A model generated the notes under the pieces. It was not told the origin of the DNA and made no database searches. It saw only the letters and a list, made by a program, of their open reading frames with translations. This document shows, piece by piece, positions 55,405 to 62,692 of a stretch of 64,000 bases of DNA. Position 1 is the first letter of the stretch. Each line of letters opens with the position of its first letter. This DNA comes from a virus (taxonomy: Duplodnaviria > Caudoviricetes), in IMG/VR virus record IMGVR_UViG_2772190661_000001, positions 32,001 through 96,000 of that record. One strand, 5' to 3'. Made by a program: the position numbers and the translations under genes.

Positions 55405-55740
55405 TTAAGCCGTGGCGACGCGCTTGGCGCGGCTACGGCCGCGGGTGCGCATGCCGGCGGCGACCTGGCGCATGGTGTTGCTGTCCGCGATCCGCTTCGC
55501 TTCCGCGGCGTTGGCCGCTTCGGTCGCCTGCCGGGTGTAGGCCTCGGCAGCCTTGTAGATCTGCTCGCGGGTCATGCCGTACGTGCCCTTGCGGTTTACG
55601 TGGTCGATGCGGCCGGCCTTGCACTCGTCCATGACGGAGCGGACGGTCCAGCCGGTTAGGTACTCGACCTGTTCCAGGGTGTAGACGAACGGGTCCGGGG
55701 CGCCGGGGATGAATAGCGGCTGCTCGATGACGTCGGTCAT
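55405..55740 (-). CDS. Excisionase-like (MerR/HTH_17) DNA-binding protein
   Basis: YTLEQVEYLTGWTVRSVMDECKAGRI; follows cro. Confidence 0.65.
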   Translation of the reverse strand: MTDVIEQPLFIPGAPDPFVYTLEQVEYLTGWTVRSVMDECKAGRIDHVNRKGTYGMTREQIYKAAEAYTRQATEAANAAEAKRIADSNTMRQVAAGMRTRGRSRAKRVATA

Positions 55741-55979
55741 GCCGCGGCCGCCGTCGGCCCGGCCTTGAGGAGGTCGTCGTAGCTGACGCCGAGGGCGTCG
55801 GTGATGCGGCCGTAGGTCGCGGGCTTCACGGTGGGCCGCTGGCCGCGTTCGATCTGCGCGACGTAGGAGACGGACAGGCCGATCGTGTCGGCGAGCTGGG
55901 TGATCGTGAGGCGCTTCCGCTGGCGCTGTTGGCGCATCTTCGCCCCGTCGACGCGGGGGCTGGCGTGCATGGGCTCCAT
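55737..55979 (-). CDS. Cro-like XRE repressor, first gene of the early operon
   Basis: LTITQLADTIGLSVSYVAQIERG; TACGCT -10 just upstream. Confidence 0.85.
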   Translation of the reverse strand: MEPMHASPRVDGAKMRQQRQRKRLTITQLADTIGLSVSYVAQIERGQRPTVKPATYGRITDALGVSYDDLLKAGPTAAAA

Positions 55980-55993
55980 GAAGCAGAAGCGTA

Positions 55994-56016
55994 CAGGATT
56001 GAGCAGGATTGAGCAG
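55994..56016. promoter_or_regulatory. Tandem direct repeat over the cro promoter (operator candidate)
   Basis: CAGGATTGAG-CAGGATTGAG-CAG. Confidence 0.55.
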
Positions 56017-56103
56017 CACTTGTCGCCAGCCTGTCGCCCGAGCGTGTTGCGGCCGGCCGCGCGCTGCAGTCAGGCAGCTCTGCGCAGCAGAAACCAGGGC
56101 AGC

Positions 56104-56168
56104 AAAAAACGCCGTGCCCCCACGGTGCCCCTAGAGTTTCTAGGAGCCCCATGAGGGCACGGCGTTTT
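56104..56168 (-). terminator. Intrinsic terminator of the tRNA operon
   Basis: Long hairpin whose G-U pairs form on the minus strand, ending in U6. Confidence 0.8.
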
Positions 56169-56174
56169 AGCAGG

Positions 56175-56247
56175 TGCCTCTGGAGAGATTCGAACTCCCG
56201 ACACCCGGATCCGTAATCCGGTGCTCTATCCGCTGAGCTACAGAGGC
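56175..56247 (-). tRNA. tRNA-Arg(ACG)
   Basis: GCCTCTG acceptor stem; CCGGA-TTACGGA-TCCGG anticodon arm; GTTCGAATC T-loop. Confidence 0.92.
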
Positions 56248-56248
56248 G

Positions 56249-56342
56249 TGGAGGAGAGTGAGGGATTCGAACCCTCGGCGGAGGTGTTCGCCCCCGCTAC
56301 GGTGTAGCAAACCGCTGCCTTGGACCGCTCGGCCAACTCTCC
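56249..56342 (-). tRNA. tRNA-Ser(GCT)
   Basis: GGAGAGT/ACTCTCC acceptor stem; loop TTGCTAC; long variable arm; encoded CCA. Confidence 0.9.
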
Positions 56343-56359
56343 TTGCATTGCGAGAAACG

Positions 56360-56431
56360 CTGCGGGCGGAGGATTCGAACCTCCATCGTCCGGGTCAGAG
56401 CCGGATGTGCTGCCGGTTGCACCAGCCCGCA
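56360..56431 (-). tRNA. tRNA-Gln(CTG)
   Basis: TCCGG-CTCTGAC-CCGGA anticodon arm; GGTTCGAATCC. Confidence 0.9.
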
Positions 56432-56437
56432 CCGGGG

Positions 56438-56470
56438 CGTCCCGGGCCGTGATCGACACGGCCCGGGACG
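56438..56470. other. 14-bp hairpin between the HNH stop and tRNA-Gln
   Basis: CGTCCCGGGCCGTG / CACGGCCCGGGACG. Confidence 0.7.
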
Positions 56471-56908
56471 TCACAGGGCCATTGCCGCCCAGGTGGGGGC
56501 GACCGGCCGGAATCGCAGGGGCATGCGCGCCTCGACAGGCGTGCGGTCACCCTTGCGCTGGTTACAGGCGCCGCACGCGGCGGCCGTGTTCGCCCATGAG
56601 TTGCGGCCGCCGCGCGAGCGGGGCATCACGTGGTCGATCGTCGAGGCGTGGCCGCCGCAGTAGACGCAGCGACGGCCGTCCCGGACCAGCACGCCGGCCC
56701 GCGACCAGCCGGGGCCACGCGAGTGCCGCCAGCGCGTCACCACGTAGCTGACCAGCCGCACCACGGTCGGCACCGGCCAGACGCCTATCTGCGAGTCGGG
56801 GTGCGACTCGTGAACCTCCGCCACGCGGCGCACCAGCATCCGCACCGCGTGGCGGAGACTGACCCGGTGCAACGGGCCGAGGTCGGCGTTCAGCACCAGC
56901 ACGTCCAC
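56471..56908 (-). CDS. HNH endonuclease (McrA-like) inside the tRNA operon
   Basis: RD...CVYCG...TIDHVMPRSRGG.NSW.N...C..CN..K; AAGGAGG RBS. Confidence 0.92.
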   Translation of the reverse strand: MDVLVLNADLGPLHRVSLRHAVRMLVRRVAEVHESHPDSQIGVWPVPTVVRLVSYVVTRWRHSRGPGWSRAGVLVRDGRRCVYCGGHASTIDHVMPRSRGGRNSWANTAAACGACNQRKGDRTPVEARMPLRFRPVAPTWAAMAL

Positions 56909-56941
56909 CGGATCCTCCTTTCATGGGTTTGTCGAGGTGAG

Positions 56942-57012
56942 AGCGGTTACGGGGAGTCGAACCCCGGTCTGCTGCATGGCAAGCAGCCGCACTGCCGTTG
57001 TGCTACAACCGC
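56942..57012 (-). tRNA. tRNA-Gly(GCC)
   Basis: GCGGTTG acceptor; GCTGC-TTGCCAT-GCAGC anticodon arm. Confidence 0.9.
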
Positions 57013-57016
57013 ATCG

Positions 57017-57091
57017 TCGGGATGCCCGGATTCGAACCGGGGGCCTTCCGCTCCCAAAGCGGACGCGCTGACCAAGCTGCGCCACATCCCG
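57017..57091 (-). tRNA. tRNA-Pro(TGG)
   Basis: CGGGATG acceptor; TCCGC-TTTGGGA-GCGGA anticodon arm. Confidence 0.92.
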
Positions 57092-57105
57092 TACTTAACC
57101 ATCCG

Positions 57106-57149
57106 CTATGGAATTCTCAATCATCATTTCCGTGCGCATAAAATGCGCA
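57106..57149 (-). promoter_or_regulatory. BoxB/BoxA-like antitermination element
   Basis: Hairpin TGCGCAT-TTT-ATGCGCA followed by TGATGATTGAGAATTCCATAG, resembling actinobacterial rrn BoxA. Confidence 0.45.
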
Positions 57150-57159
57150 GGACAAAGCG

Positions 57160-57232
57160 CACGGGCGGCAGGAGTCGAACCCGCAACCTACGGTTTTGGA
57201 GGCCGTTGCTCTACCAGTTGAGCTACACCCGT
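57160..57232 (-). tRNA. tRNA-Trp(CCA)
   Basis: ACGGGTG acceptor; loop CTCCAAA; GGTTCGACTCC. Confidence 0.9.
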
Positions 57233-57242
57233 ATGGGATACG

Positions 57243-57276
57243 AAAAACCGCCCGGTCCGATGTCGGACTCAGGCGG
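57243..57276 (-). terminator. Attenuator terminator upstream of the first tRNA
   Basis: CCGCC..GTCCGA/TCGGAC..GGCGG followed by U5, between the leader ORF and tRNA-Trp. Confidence 0.7.
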
Positions 57277-57298
57277 CGCGTCTAGCCGGGTAGGCGTA

Positions 57299-57394
57299 CT
57301 ACCCCAGGCGGCGCCGCTTGTCGGGACCTCGGACGGATGAACTCGGCTGCAGGCGCCAGGCAACACTCTTCGCCATTACTACGTTCTTCGACAT
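57299..57394 (-). CDS. Leader peptide (31 aa) MSKNVVMAKSVAWRLQPSSSVRGPDKRRRLG
   Basis: Perfect AAGGAGG RBS 8 nt before the ATG; lies between promoter and terminator. Confidence 0.7.
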   Translation of the reverse strand: MSKNVVMAKSVAWRLQPSSSVRGPDKRRRLG

Positions 57395-57441
57395 CGCCAT
57401 CGCCTCCTTCGTTTCGTCCGTCTCGCTCGGTGCTGGAATAC

Positions 57442-57479
57442 ACGTTAGTGACCCCGCACAACACGCACAACCAATTAAA
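57442..57479 (-). promoter_or_regulatory. WhiB7/WblC-type promoter
   Basis: TTTAATT, 2 bp, TTGTGC (-35), 17 bp, TAACGT (-10). Confidence 0.6.
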
Positions 57480-57532
57480 CGCGATTCCCACGGTACGCCC
57501 GCGGGAGCACCCGACAATCGCTGGTAGGGTGC

Positions 57533-58099
57533 GTGATCATGCGGCTCGGGAAGCAGATGCGCGCCCGCCGGAGCAGTGAGCTCGCGGCCCTGCGCGCCGA
57601 GGTCGCCGCGCTCCGCGCCGAGGTGGCGGCGCTCCGCCCGTCCCCGCCGCCGCCCGCCGACGACCTCGCACAGGATTACCGCACCTGGCGGGACGGCCCG
57701 CTGCTCCGGCTCGCGAAGGTGCTCACCCGCCGCGCCGGGTCCGACGCGCCCGCACCGGCCCGCGGCGCCGCGATGCACGCGCTCTGCCGGGTGCTCCTGA
57801 CCCCGGCCACCGACGCGGAGACCCGGCACCGCCTGGTCGGCGACACCGTCACCGACCTGCTGGGCGACACCTCGTGGCGCAACGACGCGGCGCTCGTCCG
57901 TACCCTCATCGAGGCTCGTGACGGCGCCACACCGCTGCGCGACGCCGTCGCCGTGCACGAGTGGCTCTGGCCGGCCGGGGGCGTCGCGCTCGACCCGGCC
58001 CGGCACGACATCCTGCCCGGCTCCGAGGGCGGCCGCGTCGTCGCGACCGCCGCCCCGGGCCTCCGTGGTGCCGTGTTACCGCTCGTCGTGGCCGGGTGA
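57533..58099 (+). CDS. Hypothetical protein with coiled coil and GrpE-like C-terminus
   Basis: LAALRAEV repeats; LDPARHD...VV....PGL resembles the GrpE beta domain. Confidence 0.45.
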   Translation: MIMRLGKQMRARRSSELAALRAEVAALRAEVAALRPSPPPPADDLAQDYRTWRDGPLLRLAKVLTRRAGSDAPAPARGAAMHALCRVLLTPATDAETRHRLVGDTVTDLLGDTSWRNDAALVRTLIEARDGATPLRDAVAVHEWLWPAGGVALDPARHDILPGSEGGRVVATAAPGLRGAVLPLVVAG

Positions 58100-58103
58100 G
58101 CCG

Positions 58104-60053
58104 CTACTGCTGATCCATGGTGGCGATCGCGAGACCGTTACCGAACGTGACCGACCACACCTGAGACCGCTCGGCATCCGACGGATCGGCCATGTCGGCC
58201 GCGAAGTCGTTGAGCGCGTAGGGGCCGCCGTTGATCGTGCGGATCTCGGCCTCCTCCGCGGGCGCGATCCACAGCGGACCCAGCCCGTCGCTGTTGCCCG
58301 CGTTCTTGTCCGCCGCCTCGCGGATCCGGAGCTTGAGGTGGCCGCCGGCCGTGCTCGCGGAGTCGACGACCATCAGGAACGGGCCGGGCCCGCTGTAGTC
58401 GGTGCCGGGCAGCTCCAGGTACGCGTCCGGGTCGTCCGGGTTGGCCTCCTTGACGGCCTGCACCACGCGCGGGTCGAGCGGCTCGCCCCGGTTGTTCCGC
58501 GGGCCGGTGCCGACCGGCGTGGCGCTGGGGGTGGCGGCGGGCGTGTTCGACGGAGCGCCGCTGGTCGGGCCGTTCTGCGGCGACCCGATCTTCTCGTCGC
58601 CACGGTTCCCGTAGGCGACATATCCGGCGCCCGCCGCGGCCAGCACCAGCAGGATCACCAGCGCGACCGGCCAGCGGCGCTTCTTCCTCGGCGGCGGACC
58701 GGCCGGCACCGCCGCGGCCCCGGTCGCCCTGCGCCCCGGCCTGCCCGGCACCTCGAACTGCGAGTACGGCCGCGTCGGCGCGAGCCCGTCGTCGGCCTGC
58801 GGGGCCCGCGACGGCACCGGCTGGGCCGGCGCACCGCGCGGGGGTGTCAACGGCGCCATAGTGACCGGCGGGGCGTGCAGCACGTTCGCCAGGCCCGGAC
58901 CGGACGGCGACGCCGGATAGGCCGGCGGCGCGGAGACCTGGCCCGCGAGCGCCGCGGCCACCTGCTCCCGCGTCACGCGCGCGGTCCGGTCCGCGTCCAG
59001 GCCACCCACGGTCTCGGCCGTGACCGCGCCGTTCGCCACCGCCAGCTCCGGCTGCTCGATCACGGCCGGCGCCACGCTCAGCGCGCGGTGCAGCATGGAC
59101 GCGACCAGCGGCACCCGGCTCGCGCCGCCGACCAGCAGCACACCCTTCAGCGCGGACGCCTCCACGCCGGCCTCGCGCAGCACCAGGCGCGTGGTCGCCA
59201 CCGTACGGTCGATCACCGGCCGGGCCAGCGCCTCGAACTGCTCGCGGCCGAGCGGCGCCTCCACCTCCAGCAGCGGCAGGTGGATGTGGGTGGCCGAGGA
59301 CCGGGACAGCATCTCCTTGCCGGTACGCACGTCCGCCCACAGTGCACGCGAGGCCCGCCGGTCCGCCGCGTCGGCCGGCGCGGTCAGGCGCGCCCAGGCC
59401 GCCGGGTCCTTCGGCGCGTACACCGCGCCGAGGTGCGCGACGATCGCCGCGTCCAGGTCCAGGCCACCGCCGTCGGACAGCCCCGACGTGGCCAGCAGTG
59501 CGAAACCGTCCCCGGTCCGCCGGATCACCGACGCGTCGTACGTGCCCGCGCCCAGGTCACAGACGACCACGCTGCCGCCGACCGGGATCGTGGTCCCGGC
59601 CGTGCTCGCGAAGTACGCCGCCGCCGCGACCGGCTCGCTGACCAGCCGCACGTTGCGCAGGCCCGCACGCGCCGCCGAGTCCAGCAGCACGTCCCGCCGC
59701 CGCTTGCCCCAGGCCGCCGGGTGCGTGATCGTCACCCGGTCCGGCGTGCCCTGCACCTGGTCCGCCACCCGCCGCAGCACGGCCGCGAACATGTCCGGCA
59801 CCGCCACCTCGACGCCCCCGAGCAGCACGGACTGCTCGTCGATGCGCTGCTTCGGGTACGGCTCATAGCTCTCCGGCGCCGTCCGGGCCGCGTGCGCCGC
59901 ATCCGGCCCCACCAGCAGCCGGCCGCCCGGATCCGCACAGACCCCCGACGGCAGCGACGGCGCGCCGTCGAACAGCACCGGGCGTACCCCCAGCGGACCA
60001 TCGAACACTGCCACCGTGCTGGAGGTGCCGAAATCTATGCAGAGGTGCGTCAC
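58104..60053 (-). CDS. Hsp70-family protein with Pro-rich linker, TM and extracellular domain
   Basis: IDFGTSSTVA, THPAAW, SEPVAAA, DLGAGTYD, GGLDLD and LVGGASRVP motifs. Confidence 0.88.
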   Translation of the reverse strand: MTHLCIDFGTSSTVAVFDGPLGVRPVLFDGAPSLPSGVCADPGGRLLVGPDAAHAARTAPESYEPYPKQRIDEQSVLLGGVEVAVPDMFAAVLRRVADQVQGTPDRVTITHPAAWGKRRRDVLLDSAARAGLRNVRLVSEPVAAAAYFASTAGTTIPVGGSVVVCDLGAGTYDASVIRRTGDGFALLATSGLSDGGGLDLDAAIVAHLGAVYAPKDPAAWARLTAPADAADRRASRALWADVRTGKEMLSRSSATHIHLPLLEVEAPLGREQFEALARPVIDRTVATTRLVLREAGVEASALKGVLLVGGASRVPLVASMLHRALSVAPAVIEQPELAVANGAVTAETVGGLDADRTARVTREQVAAALAGQVSAPPAYPASPSGPGLANVLHAPPVTMAPLTPPRGAPAQPVPSRAPQADDGLAPTRPYSQFEVPGRPGRRATGAAAVPAGPPPRKKRRWPVALVILLVLAAAGAGYVAYGNRGDEKIGSPQNGPTSGAPSNTPAATPSATPVGTGPRNNRGEPLDPRVVQAVKEANPDDPDAYLELPGTDYSGPGPFLMVVDSASTAGGHLKLRIREAADKNAGNSDGLGPLWIAPAEEAEIRTINGGPYALNDFAADMADPSDAERSQVWSVTFGNGLAIATMDQQ

Positions 60054-60455
60054 CGAACCAAGATAGCGGCCCCTCGCCCCACGCGCGTCCCAGGTGGACC
60101 GCCCTCCCCGGCCGTCCCGCAGGTCCTGCACCCACGATCGACTCGTCGCTGACCTGCTGCGACGGCGGCAGCATCCAGCGGGCATGCCCTCGGTGATCGC
60201 GGACCGCCGGTCCGGCACGGTGTCCGCGGTGCCGTAGGCGTGGGTCGGCCTCGCCCGGTCCACCCCGTCAAGATCTTCAAGCACGGACCAGAGCCCTGAC
60301 CAGGGGGTACGACATCCCGCCGCGCACCGGCACGCGCGGCAGCAAACGTGAGCGGCGGCGGGAGTCGCGTGCTCTTCGGTGACCAGCGGCGGCACCGGCT
60401 CCGATCGGGGATCGGAAGCGGAGCGCCAGCGGAGTCTTCCGAACCCCGGAGGTTG

Positions 60456-61156: not shown

Positions 61157-62692
61157 GTGATGCGAAATCCCTCGGATTGGGCAGGTAGCACTGACAGCGG
61201 CTCTCCCAAGTACGCCGTGGCCTACATACGGGTGTCCCGGGTGGGCGGACGGGACGATGACCTCATCTCTCCGGAGTTGCAGCGATTCCAGATCGATGAG
61301 CTTGCCCGGCGCGAAGGGATCAAGATCGTCGAGGAGATGCAGGATCTAGACCGGTCCGGACGCGACTTCACCAAACGTCGCGTCGAGGAGATCATCGACG
61401 GAATCCGGAACGGCAAGTGGCAGTACGTCCTGCTCTGGAAGTGGTCCCGCTGGGGCCGCAACATGCGCCAGTCTCAGCTGTACCTGGGTCGGGCTGAGGA
61501 CGCTGGCGGCGTCGTACGCGCAGCGACGGAGGATTTCGACCCGGGAACAACTATCGGCCGCTTCAGCCGAGACCAGATGCTGTCCTTCGCGCAACTGCAA
61601 TCGGACATGATCGGTGACAGTTGGCGTGATACCCAGGACCGTCGTCGCCGCAATGGCCTACCTCATAACGGTCGGCCTCGGTTCGGGTACGAGTACAGCC
61701 GGAAGACCGGCTATACCCCTCATCCTGAAACCGGGCCACTGCTGGCGAGCTTCTATGAGCGGTATGTTGCCGGGGAGTCCTTCTACAAGCTCGTCCTGGA
61801 GTTGAACCGCAGCGGCATCCAGCCGCCCCAGACGGATGTTTGGAGTCAGACGGCGCTCTCGGTTCTCATGGATACGGGTTTCGCGGCTGGGCTGATTCGA
61901 GAGAAGTCTTCCCAACAGCGTCGCCGTGAGGGCAAGGCCACCAGGCGCACGCTCGACTCGTACGATATCTGGCGCGTAGGCGCACATGAGCCGTTGATTT
62001 CAGAGCCGGTCTGGGTTCGGTATCTCGAACGCCGCAAGCAACAGGCGAAGCTTCCTCCGAGGTCTCGGTCGCCGAAGTACGCCTTGTCGTCTGTCATGCG
62101 GTGTGCACTGTGCGGAGCGTCGATGACAGTGATGCATGGAAGGAACGGGCGTCAGTGGTCGTGTTCGAAGGCACGAGCGTCCCGGCACCACGAGCCGAAC
62201 TACATTTCGGACGTCCGGGCAAGTCAAGAGGCTTTGGACTGGTTGTTGTCCAATGTGCCGGAGAAGTCTAGTGGGGCGGTAACGGAGGAGGCTCGTCGGC
62301 TGGAGCGAGGTCGTGTGGCACGTGACCGCGTGGCCCGGCTGTCCGAGCAGGACAAGAAGATCAAGGGGCGGCGAGCGAAGCTGATCGACCTGTACTCCGA
62401 TGATTTGGTGACGCGCGAGGAGTTTGAGGAGAGGCGTGCATCGCTTCTGGTGGAGTTGGAGGTGGTGCAGGCTGCCCTCGCTGAGGCGCGAGAGGATGAG
62501 CGGCGTTCGGGGGTAAGTTATGTCCGGGCCTTTTCGACACTGGCTCAGGAGTGGGATCTTTGGGAACCGGATAAGCGGCGGGAGGCATTGCTTCAGTTGG
62601 TGGGTAGTGTGACGGTTCTCCCGAAGAGTGCGAACGAATCTAAGCGACTCGTCGTTGTTCCAATATGGGATAGAACCGGCGAGGTGGGATAG
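61157..62692 (+). CDS. Large serine recombinase (integrase)
   Basis: YIRVS catalytic motif, D.DRSG, SRWGRN, PRFGY, Zn ribbon CALCG and coiled coil. Confidence 0.93.

What the first reader, a model, noticed from the sequence alone, without database searches (positions are those of the whole stretch)
56104..57479. Candidate translation-stress tRNA operon with layered control: WhiB7-type promoter, leader-peptide attenuator, BoxA and an embedded HNH gene
Seen on the minus strand, in order: an AT tract just upstream of a -35/17 bp/-10 promoter, a strong-RBS 31-codon uORF, a U-tailed terminator, tRNA-Trp, a BoxB/BoxA-like element, tRNA-Pro, tRNA-Gly, an HNH gene, a hairpin, tRNA-Gln, tRNA-Ser, tRNA-Arg and a terminator. 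Established: WhiB7/WblC binds an AT tract upstream of -35, uORF attenuation senses ribosome stalling, and cyanobacteria have a silent tRNA operon induced by translation inhibitors. Inference: this is a normally silent reserve tRNA module, switched on by ribosome-targeting antibiotics or by anticodon nucleases. Housekeeping tRNA genes do not usually sit behind a translated attenuator.
Basis: partly seen in the sequence, partly recalled or inferred. Interest (0 to 1): 0.85.

Follow-up and report, generated by a model that had tools for sequence, protein, structure and literature searches.

The report
Stress-gated spare tRNA operon, prophage-split
This is the front half of a chromosomal cluster of spare tRNA genes with an embedded HNH nuclease gene, sitting behind a conserved control region that resembles known antibiotic-stress switches; the cluster type occurs in about half of related genomes, and here a ~92 kb prophage-bearing insertion has cut it in two.

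Summary
Most are conserved in 15 to 24 related tRNA arrays, so they are not chance.

- **Order on the minus strand:** A/T hexamer, three bases, -35, 17 bp, -10; Shine-Dalgarno site and 31-codon uORF; intrinsic terminator; tRNA-Trp; hairpin plus a site like the genome's own rRNA-leader BoxA; Pro, Gly, HNH, Gln, Ser, Arg.
- **Redundancy:** all six tRNAs have divergent housekeeping copies elsewhere in the genome.
- **Promoter:** it has the published WblC/WhiB7-activated architecture, as does this genome's own whiB7 promoter.
- **Antiterminator:** the last uORF codons can pair with the terminator's 5' arm. This is convincing across the family but weak in this window.

- The array is chromosomal. 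It belongs to a family found in 203 of 401 Micromonosporaceae genomes searched.
- It is not complete here. A ~91.9 kb element containing a prophage integrated into tRNA-Arg, moving Pro, Ser-like, Val, Val and His 92 kb away.
- The final terminator comes from that element.

The closest known system is the silent, antibiotic-induced tRNA operon of Anabaena. The control region here is different and I found no description of it.

The parts
57474..57479 (-). A/T-rich hexamer TTTAAT, 3 bp upstream of the -35. This is the position of the WblC/WhiB7 motif.
   Evidence: A/T hexamers sit at the same position in 10 of the 15 first-set array promoters called by the pattern search. The published motif GAAAWY lies 3 bp upstream of -35 (PMC7157823). 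The genome's own whiB7 promoter reads TTAATT-CGT-TTGCCT-18-TAGCCT.
57442..57470 (-). Promoter-like core: -35 TTGTGC (57470-57465), 17 bp spacer, -10 TAACGT (57447-57442). The predicted start is near 57434, at the conserved CACCGAG.
   Evidence: Conserved as TTGnnn-17/18-TAnnnT across arrays. Not called by the generic scan.
57299..57394 (-). Leader ORF of 31 codons plus TAG (MSKNVVMAKSVAWRLQPSSSVRGPDKRRRLG). The Shine-Dalgarno site GAAGGAGG is at 57410-57403.
   Evidence: The SD and ATG are invariant in 15 leaders. Peptide lengths differ by whole codons (45 nt between the window and L001). GC3 exceeds GC1 and GC2.
57310..57318 (-). Candidate antiterminator strand (AGCGGCGCC) in the last uORF codons. 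It can pair with the terminator 5' arm at 57279-57271.
   Evidence: this pairing is in the minimum-energy fold of the pre-terminator transcript in 13 of 15 leaders; the energy gain beats most shuffles in 12 of 15, but not in this window (-6.9 against a shuffle mean of -6.9 kcal/mol).
57288..57304 (-). Small hairpin that contains the uORF stop codon.
   Evidence: A hairpin at or after the stop codon is predicted in most leaders, and TAG is the stop in 14 of 15.
57243..57277 (-). Intrinsic terminator: a 13 bp GC-rich stem and U5, ending 10 nt before tRNA-Trp.
   Evidence: -24.8 kcal/mol; 91% of cells paired; 8 cells changed on both sides, reached by 0 of 500 shuffles.
57159..57232 (-). tRNA-Trp (CCA), the first gene of the array.
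   Evidence: It is first in 23 of the 27 arrays examined (window, 14, 8 of 12); in L089/L090 the first gene is unassigned and in L085, L087 and L095 none was called.
57133..57149 (-). BoxB-like hairpin TGCGCA-TTTTA-TGCGCA.
   Evidence: A hairpin of varying sequence sits at the same place in the other arrays.
57099..57126 (-). rRNA-leader-type BoxA/BoxC-like site (TGATGATTGAGAATTCCATAGCGGATGG).
   Evidence: TTGAGAAYTC occurs 7 times in the genome, 6 in rRNA leaders plus this site; conserved as TTGAnAACTC(A/C)ACAGTGGATGG after tRNA-Trp; a profile of the array sites retrieves the rRNA leaders.
57016..57091 (-). tRNA-Pro (TGG).
56941..57012 (-). tRNA-Gly (GCC).
56471..56908 (-). HNH endonuclease gene (145 aa, GTG start behind AAGGAGG). 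It lies between tRNA-Gly-GCC and tRNA-Gln-CTG in most HNH-containing arrays.
   Evidence: Homologues at 58-94% identity in 80 loci. Position seen.
56439..56469 (-). Perfect 13 bp hairpin directly after the HNH stop codon, with no U tract.
   Evidence: read from the sequence. Also present in L001 (alignment region).
56359..56431 (-). tRNA-Gln (CTG).
56249..56342 (-). tRNA-Ser (GCT).
56173..56247 (-). tRNA-Arg (ACG). Its 3' 45 nt (56218-56174) are the attachment core of an integrated element.
   Evidence: an exact 45 bp repeat lies at C4:312341-312385, 9 nt from tRNA-Pro-GGG; collinearity with L001 stops at 56241.
56106..56168 (-). Strong two-way terminator hairpin. It derives from the integrated element and is not part of the ancestral array.
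   Evidence: inverted repeat 56106-56168. It lies inside the element's boundaries.
55737..55979 (-). First gene of the integrated element's prophage part (XRE/Cro-like). It marks the foreign DNA downstream of the array.
   Evidence: XRE, excisionase-like, RecE, RecT, Ant, DnaB and tape measure proteins.

Best explanation
**What it is.** This is the promoter-proximal half of a chromosomal array of spare tRNA genes with an embedded HNH gene. The array is of the long-array kind. It carries a three-part control region that is conserved across Micromonosporaceae.

**How it most likely works.** The sequence elements below are shown; their function is inferred.
1. Transcription starts at a promoter with an A/T hexamer 3 bp upstream of the -35. 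This is the layout that WblC/WhiB7 uses to activate genes when translation is impaired.
2. The transcript begins with a well-initiated 31-codon leader ORF followed by an intrinsic terminator.
   - When ribosomes run quickly to the stop codon, they cover the last codons. The terminator then forms and the array stays off.
   - When ribosomes stall or lag, those codons pair with the terminator's 5' arm and RNA polymerase reads through. Antibiotics, shortage of charged tRNA or damaged tRNA could all cause this.
3. After tRNA-Trp, a hairpin plus an rRNA-type BoxA/BoxC-like site is expected to load Nus factors, so that the long untranslated transcript escapes Rho.
4. RNase P and RNase Z would then release the tRNAs and the HNH mRNA.

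**State in this genome.** A ~91.9 kb element with a tyrosine integrase, containing a prophage, integrated into tRNA-Arg-ACG. It rebuilt that gene and supplied a terminator. It also separated Pro-GGG, a Ser-CGA-like gene, Val-GAC, Val-CAC and His-GTG from their promoter.
For: **Anatomy.**

**Redundant, divergent copies.** Each of the six isoacceptors has a housekeeping gene elsewhere (C37, C27, C1/C33, C31, C22).

**Family.**
- HNH homologues occur in 80 loci.
- Arrays of 5-25 tRNAs have the same order.
- The post-Trp 17-mer is found in 203 of 401 family genomes and 43 of 69 genera, with a near-zero reversed control.
- 12 of 12 sampled hits lie in arrays.

**Chromosomal setting.** Neighbours are ordinary metabolic and transport genes. 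L001 is collinear only as far as tRNA-Arg.

**Split by integration.**
- A 45 bp exact repeat marks both ends.
- An integrase lies about 310 bp from the far copy.
- The displaced genes continue the canonical order.

**Promoter.**
- The layout is conserved and matches the published WblC consensus (PMC7157823).
- The genome has a WhiB7 orthologue with an AT-hook, and its promoter has the same layout.
- Only 27 such sites exist in the 11 Mb genome.

**Attenuator.**
- The SD and ATG are invariant, and peptide lengths differ by whole codons.
- The terminator shows covariation.
- The antiterminator appears in 13 of 15 folds and beats most shuffles in 12 of 15.
- The same logic is documented for whiB7 leaders (PMC10727445).
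- Leader peptides are unusually diverse in codons.

**Nut-like site.**

**Precedent.** The Anabaena array is silent, is induced 100-1000-fold by ribosome inhibitors, and has a co-regulated HNH gene (PMC8421152).
Against: - No expression data could be obtained. Silence, induction, read-through and Nus dependence are therefore all inferred.
- In this window the antiterminator pairing gains no more energy than shuffled sequence does. The leader also has ordinary amino-acid diversity (13 types).
- An A/T tract upstream of -35 could be a plain UP element of a stable-RNA promoter rather than a WhiB7 site. The hexamer TTTAAT matches GAAAWY at only 3 of 6 positions.
- The window's BoxA-like site lacks the U-rich CUUUG half of the genome's rRNA BoxA: it reads GAUUG.
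- The conserved Trp codons lie in stretches that base-pair, so RNA structure may explain them.
- The array is truncated here and may be decaying.
Confidence: 0.6

Rival explanations
1. It is a phage-encoded tRNA cluster: the tRNAs and the HNH gene belong to the adjacent prophage and serve phage translation or counter host tRNA nucleases.
For: Prophage early genes start 190 bp downstream (XRE, Xis-like, RecET). tRNA clusters with HNH genes are common in actinophages.
Against: - The attachment core lies in the 3' 45 nt of tRNA-Arg. The array is therefore outside the element, whose integrase is at the far end 92 kb away.
- L001 has the same array and upstream genes with no prophage.
- Related arrays sit among ordinary chromosomal genes.
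- No phage record matches beyond single tRNAs.
Confidence: 0.04
2. It is an ordinary constitutive spare tRNA operon. The small ORF is an independent small-protein gene with its own leaky terminator, the A/T tract is an UP element, and the tRNAs are made by steady read-through with no stress sensing.
For: - The antiterminator is not better than chance in this window.
- A/T tracts upstream of -35 are typical of stable-RNA promoters (general knowledge).
- The leader peptide family is conserved at the amino-acid level (MxW...GRWxx), which a functional small protein would also show.
Against: - A -25 kcal/mol terminator with a U tract sits 4-50 nt before the first tRNA in every array. That would waste a strong promoter.
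- Antiterminator pairing overlaps the last codons in 13 of 15 leaders.
- The stop codon lies in a conserved hairpin.
- The layout mirrors the documented whiB7 attenuator.
Confidence: 0.2
3. It is a decaying relic. After the prophage insertion and loss of many tRNAs, the array in this genome is non-functional, and the conserved elements only reflect recent ancestry.
For: - Only about 11 tRNA genes remain, against up to 25 in relatives, and they are split in two.
- One displaced gene is a sub-threshold tRNA-like sequence.
- Many relatives keep only the HNH gene.
- The window leader is shorter and less diverse than the others.
Against: - All six tRNAs score 58-67 bits.
- The HNH ORF is intact, with high GC3 (0.92).
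- The leader, terminator and BoxA-like site are intact and about 79% identical to L001 across the whole unit.
Confidence: 0.15

Closest known systems
Long tRNA arrays (L-arrays), e.g. the Anabaena sp. PCC 7120 trn operon (PMC8421152; TrcR repressor, PMC10272220)
   Same: - Dense, same-strand array of supernumerary tRNA genes that duplicate housekeeping isoacceptors.
- Patchy distribution with signs of horizontal transfer.
- An associated HNH endonuclease gene.
- In Anabaena the array is silent and is induced by ribosome-targeting antibiotics, which is the behaviour predicted here.
   Different: - Anabaena uses a repressor (TrcR) that binds direct repeats over the -10 and the start site.
- Here the control region is an A/T-hexamer promoter, a translated leader with a terminator, and a BoxA-like site.
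- The HNH gene is inside the array rather than upstream.
- No expression data exist for the present family.
Mycobacterial tRNA array units (PMC5966550, PMC6515697, PMC12803027)
   Same: Actinobacterial arrays on chromosomes, plasmids and phages. HNH endonuclease is the most widespread embedded gene.
   Different: No promoter, leader or terminator is mentioned in the main text of PMC5966550. Those arrays are often on plasmids or prophages, whereas this family sits among chromosomal genes.
whiB7/wblC leader attenuator and WblC/WhiB7-activated promoters (PMC7157823, PMC10727445)
   Same: - Promoter layout: A/T motif 3 bp upstream of -35, 17-18 bp spacer, TANNNT.
- A uORF followed by a rho-independent terminator, with an antiterminator that uses overlapping uORF and terminator sequence.
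- This genome's own whiB7 has both features.
   Different: Here the controlled genes are tRNAs rather than a transcription factor or resistance genes. The leader peptide is unrelated in sequence. WhiB7 binding has not been tested.
rRNA operon antitermination site (BoxB-BoxA-BoxC; PMC6614797, PMC2724277)
   Same: A hairpin followed by a sequence matching this genome's rRNA leader (TTGAGAAYTC core). Some arrays share 15 nt with it. In both cases the site sits in a long untranslated transcript.
   Different: It lies after the first tRNA rather than in a 5' leader. The U-rich half of BoxA is degenerate in this window. Nus factor binding has not been tested.

Membership tests
Long tRNA array (L-array / tRNA array unit) | Many tRNA genes, same orientation, high density (strict definition: at least 20 genes, at least 2 per kb) | tested here: inconclusive
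   Density is met: 6 tRNAs in 1.06 kb. The count is not: 6 here plus 5 displaced. Relatives of the same family reach 19-25 genes.
Long tRNA array (L-array / tRNA array unit) | Supernumerary genes that duplicate housekeeping isoacceptors | tested here: met
   Each of the six anticodons has a separate, divergent copy elsewhere in the genome.
Long tRNA array (L-array / tRNA array unit) | Patchy distribution with signs of horizontal transfer | tested here: met
   203 of 401 family genomes and 1 of 5 other genomes of the same genus carry the marker. The HNH tree places an Umezawaea copy beside the Catenuloplanes L001 and window copies.
Long tRNA array (L-array / tRNA array unit) | Associated HNH homing-type endonuclease gene | tested here: met
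   Pfam HNH_5/HNH, at a near-constant position in most HNH-containing arrays; some arrays lack it.
Long tRNA array (L-array / tRNA array unit) | Silent in standard growth, induced by translational stress | not testable with these tools
WblC/WhiB7-activated promoter | A/T-rich motif (GAAAWY) 3 bp upstream of -35, 16-19 bp spacer, -10 TANNNT | tested here: met
   The site reads TTTAAT-TGG-TTGTGC-17-TAACGT. Position and spacing fit; the hexamer matches GAAAWY at 3 of 6 positions. Relatives have CAAAAA, ACAAAA, ATAAAT.
WblC/WhiB7-activated promoter | Host encodes WhiB7 with a C-terminal AT-hook | tested here: met
   C10 orthologue with RKRPRGRPRK. Its own promoter is TTAATT-CGT-TTGCCT-18-TAGCCT.
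WblC/WhiB7-activated promoter | WhiB7 binding and WhiB7-dependent activation | not testable with these tools
   Needs ChIP or a mutant.
Ribosome-mediated transcription attenuator (trpL / whiB7-leader type) | Translated leader ORF followed by an intrinsic terminator before the regulated genes | tested here: met
Ribosome-mediated transcription attenuator (trpL / whiB7-leader type) | Alternative antiterminator that overlaps the leader ORF and the terminator 5' arm | tested here: inconclusive
   Present in 13 of 15 pre-terminator folds and better than most shuffles in 12 of 15. In this window it equals the shuffle mean.
Ribosome-mediated transcription attenuator (trpL / whiB7-leader type) | Regulatory codons that report a specific charged tRNA | tested here: inconclusive
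   Trp is in all 15 first-set leaders (4.1% of residues), but the codons lie in pairing stretches. Leaders are broadly codon-diverse. The swap control shows no array-specific tuning.
rRNA-type Nus antitermination site (BoxB-BoxA-BoxC) | Sequence match to the organism's own rRNA leader BoxA region, preceded by a hairpin | tested here: met
rRNA-type Nus antitermination site (BoxB-BoxA-BoxC) | U-rich BoxA core (CUUUG/CUUUA) | tested here: not met
   The window has GAUUG where the rRNA leader has CUUUG. Relatives have UUUUG or AUUUG.
Phage-encoded tRNA cluster | Lies within the phage or prophage genome boundaries | tested here: not met
   The att core is in tRNA-Arg, so the array lies outside the element.
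T-box riboswitch or another Rfam leader | Match to a curated covariance model | tested here: not met
   No Rfam hit other than tRNAs at E up to 1 in 55500-58200.

The most novel reading that the evidence does not exclude
The conserved leader peptide may act as a broad sensor of charged-tRNA supply. It has 18-20 amino-acid types and about 30 codon types in roughly 40 codons, with the pattern MxW...GRWxx.

On this reading, shortage or damage of almost any tRNA stalls the ribosome and opens the attenuator. A tRNA operon would then regulate itself through translation of its own leader, under WhiB7 and protected by a Nus site. This would be an actinobacterial backup translation system that has not been described.
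Probability: 0.25. Interest if true: 0.85.

Novelty: new variant of a known kind. Interest (0 to 1): 0.72.

Why it matters
Long tRNA arrays are widespread, but their regulation is understood only in one cyanobacterium, where a repressor controls them.

Here a whole bacterial family rich in antibiotic producers carries arrays behind a leader that combines three known devices in front of tRNA genes. The devices are a stress-activator promoter, a ribosome-sensing terminator and an rRNA-style antitermination site.

If it works as predicted, three things follow:
- It would link the WhiB7 antibiotic-stress response to a reserve tRNA pool.
- It would be the first example I know of where leader-peptide attenuation controls tRNA genes.
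- It would offer a simple reporter for translation stress in actinomycetes.

The window also shows that a tRNA gene inside such an array can serve as a phage integration site, which can break the array.

Tried and rejected
- **Prophage origin (my first reading).** Rejected by the att repeat, the distant integrase and the prophage-free relative L001.
- **Phage database.** A DNA search gave only single-tRNA matches. Viral contigs gave two weak HNH hits.
- **Leader codons tuned to the array's tRNAs.**
  - 6 of 6 tRNAs are covered in the window (P 0.04 against random ORFs).
  - In-array coverage equals or exceeds out-of-array coverage in all 16 complete arrays.
  - However, leaders from other clades cover the same arrays about as well (16 of 19 for the window). 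Specific tuning is therefore not shown, only general codon diversity.
- **Trp-specific sensing.** Trp codons are conserved, but they sit in base-paired stretches, so this is not separable from structure.
- **Regulon check.** The 27 genome-wide promoter-motif hits include whiB7, ABC-type ATPases and other membrane proteins. The list is too mixed to confirm a regulon.
- **Technical failures.** A dinucleotide-shuffle script timed out and one call was lost. The test was redone with simple shuffles. The first tree build failed on a label error and was redone with FastTree.
Full report
**1. What is in the sequence**

On the minus strand ARAGORN finds six tRNA genes. Rfam confirms all six at 58-67 bits.

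| Gene | Coordinates |
|---|---|
| Trp-CCA | 57232-57159 |
| Pro-TGG | 57091-57016 |
| Gly-GCC | 57012-56941 |
| Gln-CTG | 56431-56359 |
| Ser-GCT | 56342-56249 |
| Arg-ACG | 56247-56173 |

Between Gly and Gln lies an intact 145-aa HNH endonuclease gene at 56908-56471 (Pfam HNH_5 8.7e-13). It belongs to the small Cas9/IscB-like HNH group.

- TTTAAT, then TGG, then TTGTGC, a 17 bp spacer and TAACGT.
- GAAGGAGG lies 8 nt before an ATG that opens a 31-codon ORF (57394-57299).
- A 13 bp GC-rich hairpin with five U (57277-57243, -24.8 kcal/mol) ends 10 nt before the tRNA.

No Rfam family other than tRNA matches the region at E up to 1.

**2. The tRNAs are spare copies**

A scan of the whole 11 Mb assembly shows a separate, clearly divergent gene for each of the six anticodons (contigs C37, C27, C1/C33, C31, C22).

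**3. The array is chromosomal, and a ~92 kb insertion has cut it**

The genes just downstream are prophage early genes followed by a tape measure gene: XRE/Cro-like, excisionase-like, RecE, RecT, Ant and DnaB. I first took the array for a phage tRNA cluster. Three results overturn that.

- **A prophage-free relative.** A Catenuloplanes genome (L001) is collinear with the window from 60067 to 56241. That stretch covers the Hsp70-like gene, a 188-aa ORF, the leader, Trp, Pro, Gly, HNH, Gln and Ser. It then diverges into ordinary chromosomal genes.
- **An attachment repeat.** The 3' 45 nt of tRNA-Arg (56218-56174) recur exactly once more in the genome, at C4:312341-312385. That copy lies 9 nt from tRNA-Pro-GGG. 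Following it are a class-II tRNA-like sequence with a CGA anticodon (sub-threshold), Val-GAC, Val-CAC and His-GTG.
- **An integrase.** A tyrosine integrase gene sits about 310 bp inside that repeat.

So an element of about 91.9 kb, containing a prophage, integrated into tRNA-Arg inside the array. The order Arg-ACG then Pro-GGG then Ser-CGA is the order seen in intact relatives. The strong terminator after tRNA-Arg lies inside the element and is not ancestral. Beyond His come ordinary genes, including arsenate-type genes and ergothioneine biosynthesis.

**4. It belongs to a large family**

- **HNH homologues.** The HNH protein has homologues at 58-94% identity in 80 loci, mostly Micromonosporaceae.
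- **Array structure.** Sixteen of the 80 loci hold arrays of 5-25 tRNA genes, most with the layout Trp first, HNH between Gly-GCC and Gln-CTG.
- **HNH-only loci.** The rest hold the HNH gene alone in two conserved neighbourhoods of ordinary metabolic and transport genes. On the HNH tree one HNH-only group is nested among array copies, which suggests arrays that lost their tRNAs.
- **Distribution.** A 17-mer from the site after tRNA-Trp occurs, with at most one mismatch, in 203 of 401 genomes of the family and 43 of 69 genera. The reversed control is near zero. That tally includes one genome flagged unpublished, G106; no single claim rests on it.
- **Specificity.** All 12 sampled hits lie in tRNA arrays; in 9 a tRNA gene lies just upstream of the site (Trp in 7, unassigned in 2). 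Some of these arrays lack HNH.

**5. Promoter**

In 10 of the first 15 leaders a pattern search finds the same layout: an A/T-rich hexamer, three bases, TTGnnn, 17 or 18 bp, then TAnnnT or CATnnT. A conserved CACCGA follows at the expected start site.

This is the layout published for 183 WblC-activated promoters of Streptomyces coelicolor: GAAAWY 3 bp upstream of TKGMNN, a 16-19 bp spacer, TANNNT, and a start 7-8 bp downstream. Six tRNA genes are among the direct targets there (PMC7157823).

The genome encodes a WhiB7 orthologue with the AT-hook RGRPRK. Its promoter reads TTAATT-CGT-TTGCCT-18-TAGCCT. Only 27 sites in the genome fit this pattern.

The fit is to position and spacing. The window's hexamer matches GAAAWY at only 3 of 6 positions, and a plain UP element is a fair alternative.

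**6. Leader ORF and terminator**

The evidence that the ORF is translated:
- The Shine-Dalgarno site and ATG are invariant in the 15-leader alignment.
- Peptide lengths differ by whole codons.
- GC3 exceeds GC1 and GC2.

The peptides form one family, with M-x-W-(Q/R/H/S) at the start and G-R-W-x-x at the end.

The terminator stem is 91% paired across sequences, against 33-60% when the partners are slid. It also shows some compensatory change.

Folding each transcript up to the terminator's 5' arm gives an alternative helix in 13 of 15 cases. In that helix the last uORF codons pair with the 5' arm and enclose a small hairpin that holds the stop codon. Adding the arm lowers the energy more than in most shuffles for 12 of 15 leaders. 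In this window the gain only equals the shuffle mean.

This is the mechanism described for whiB7 leaders: stalled ribosomes allow an antiterminator built from overlapping uORF and terminator sequence (PMC10727445). The genome's own whiB7 also has a long uORF and a terminator.

**7. BoxA-like site**

After tRNA-Trp the only long A/T-rich spacer holds a hairpin and then TGATGATTGAGAATTCCATAGCGGATGG.
- The core TTGAGAAYTC occurs seven times in the genome: six in rRNA leaders (GTTGTTCTTTGAGAACTCAACAGGGTG) and once here.
- Every array examined has a hairpin of varying sequence followed by TTGAnAACTC(A/C)ACAGTGGATGG. Two share 15 nt with the rRNA leader.
- A profile built only from the array sites retrieves all six rRNA leaders in the genome (E about 0.03) after its own site.

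The window copy, however, lacks the U-rich half of BoxA.

**8. Leader codon content**

Leaders of large arrays use 18-20 amino-acid types and 28-33 codon types in 40-62 codons. Real gene segments of equal length average about 14.5 and 21 (P from below 0.001 to 0.06). Diversity rises with array size (Spearman 0.64, not corrected for relatedness).

The window's leader covers all six of its tRNAs (P 0.04), but leaders from other clades do as well. I therefore accept general diversity and not array-specific tuning.

A second small array in this genome lies at C20:18482-19128. It has an unrelated leader ORF, a homologous terminator, and Leu, Leu, Ala, Tyr and Cys genes.

**9. Comparison and verdict**

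The closest known system is the long tRNA array of Anabaena. It is silent, is induced 100-1000-fold by ribosome inhibitors, has a co-regulated HNH gene, and is controlled by a repressor (PMC8421152, PMC10272220). Mycobacterial arrays also carry HNH genes (PMC5966550).

I found no paper linking tRNA arrays to a leader attenuator, WhiB7 or a Nus site.

The anatomy and its conservation are solid. The regulatory reading is a well-supported inference that still needs expression data, which the tools would not give.

Noticed in passing
window 1-56218 and G000:C4:312341-348040 (L083:12341-12385 holds the far att copy): An integrated element of about 91.9 kb is bounded by an exact 45 bp repeat of the tRNA-Arg 3' end. 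A tyrosine integrase lies at C4:312696-313802, and the Cro-like end is at window 55979. This is large for one siphovirus prophage and may be composite.
   Followed up: partly
G000:C20:18482-19128: A second small tRNA array (Leu-GAG, Leu-CAG, Ala-CGC, Tyr, Cys) sits behind an unrelated Ala/Leu-rich 33-codon ORF and a terminator homologous to the one in the window. The ORF contains codons for all five tRNAs.
   Followed up: partly
G000:C10:154343-155400: The WhiB7 orthologue (AT-hook RGRPRK) has a promoter TTAATT-CGT-TTGCCT-18-TAGCCT, a leader ORF of about 125 codons and a terminator. Its leader shares the 8-mer CACCGAGC with the 5' end of the array leader.
   Followed up: partly
G000:C42:62665-62691: This is the best non-rRNA, non-array hit of the nut-site profile (TTGACAACTCGACAGCGGAAAT, E 0.01), preceded by a hairpin with a U tract. 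It may be another BoxA-type site.
   Followed up: no
window 61157-62692: A large serine recombinase gene sits at the edge of a lower-GC stretch (61-64 kb). It is probably the end of another mobile element and unrelated to the array.
   Followed up: no
window 57533-60263: A divergent 188-aa ORF with a heptad-like ELAALRAEVAALR repeat and a 719-aa Hsp70/HscA-like gene lie upstream of the array. They are conserved with it in L001 but not in other arrays. Neither has a clear family assignment beyond the Hsp70 ATPase domain.
   Followed up: partly
L003-L078 (HNH-only loci): The array-type HNH gene is also kept alone, at 70-85% identity, in two conserved chromosomal neighbourhoods. One is next to MTHFR, a CDP-alcohol transferase, MarR and MFS genes. 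The other is next to a sugar ABC transporter. Some genomes have both a lone copy and an array copy, which suggests a cellular role beyond homing.
   Followed up: partly
L001:486-561 and dozens of sites in G000: A repeat of about 76 bp is present in many copies across the genome at 80-95% identity. It may be a small dispersed repeat element.
   Followed up: no
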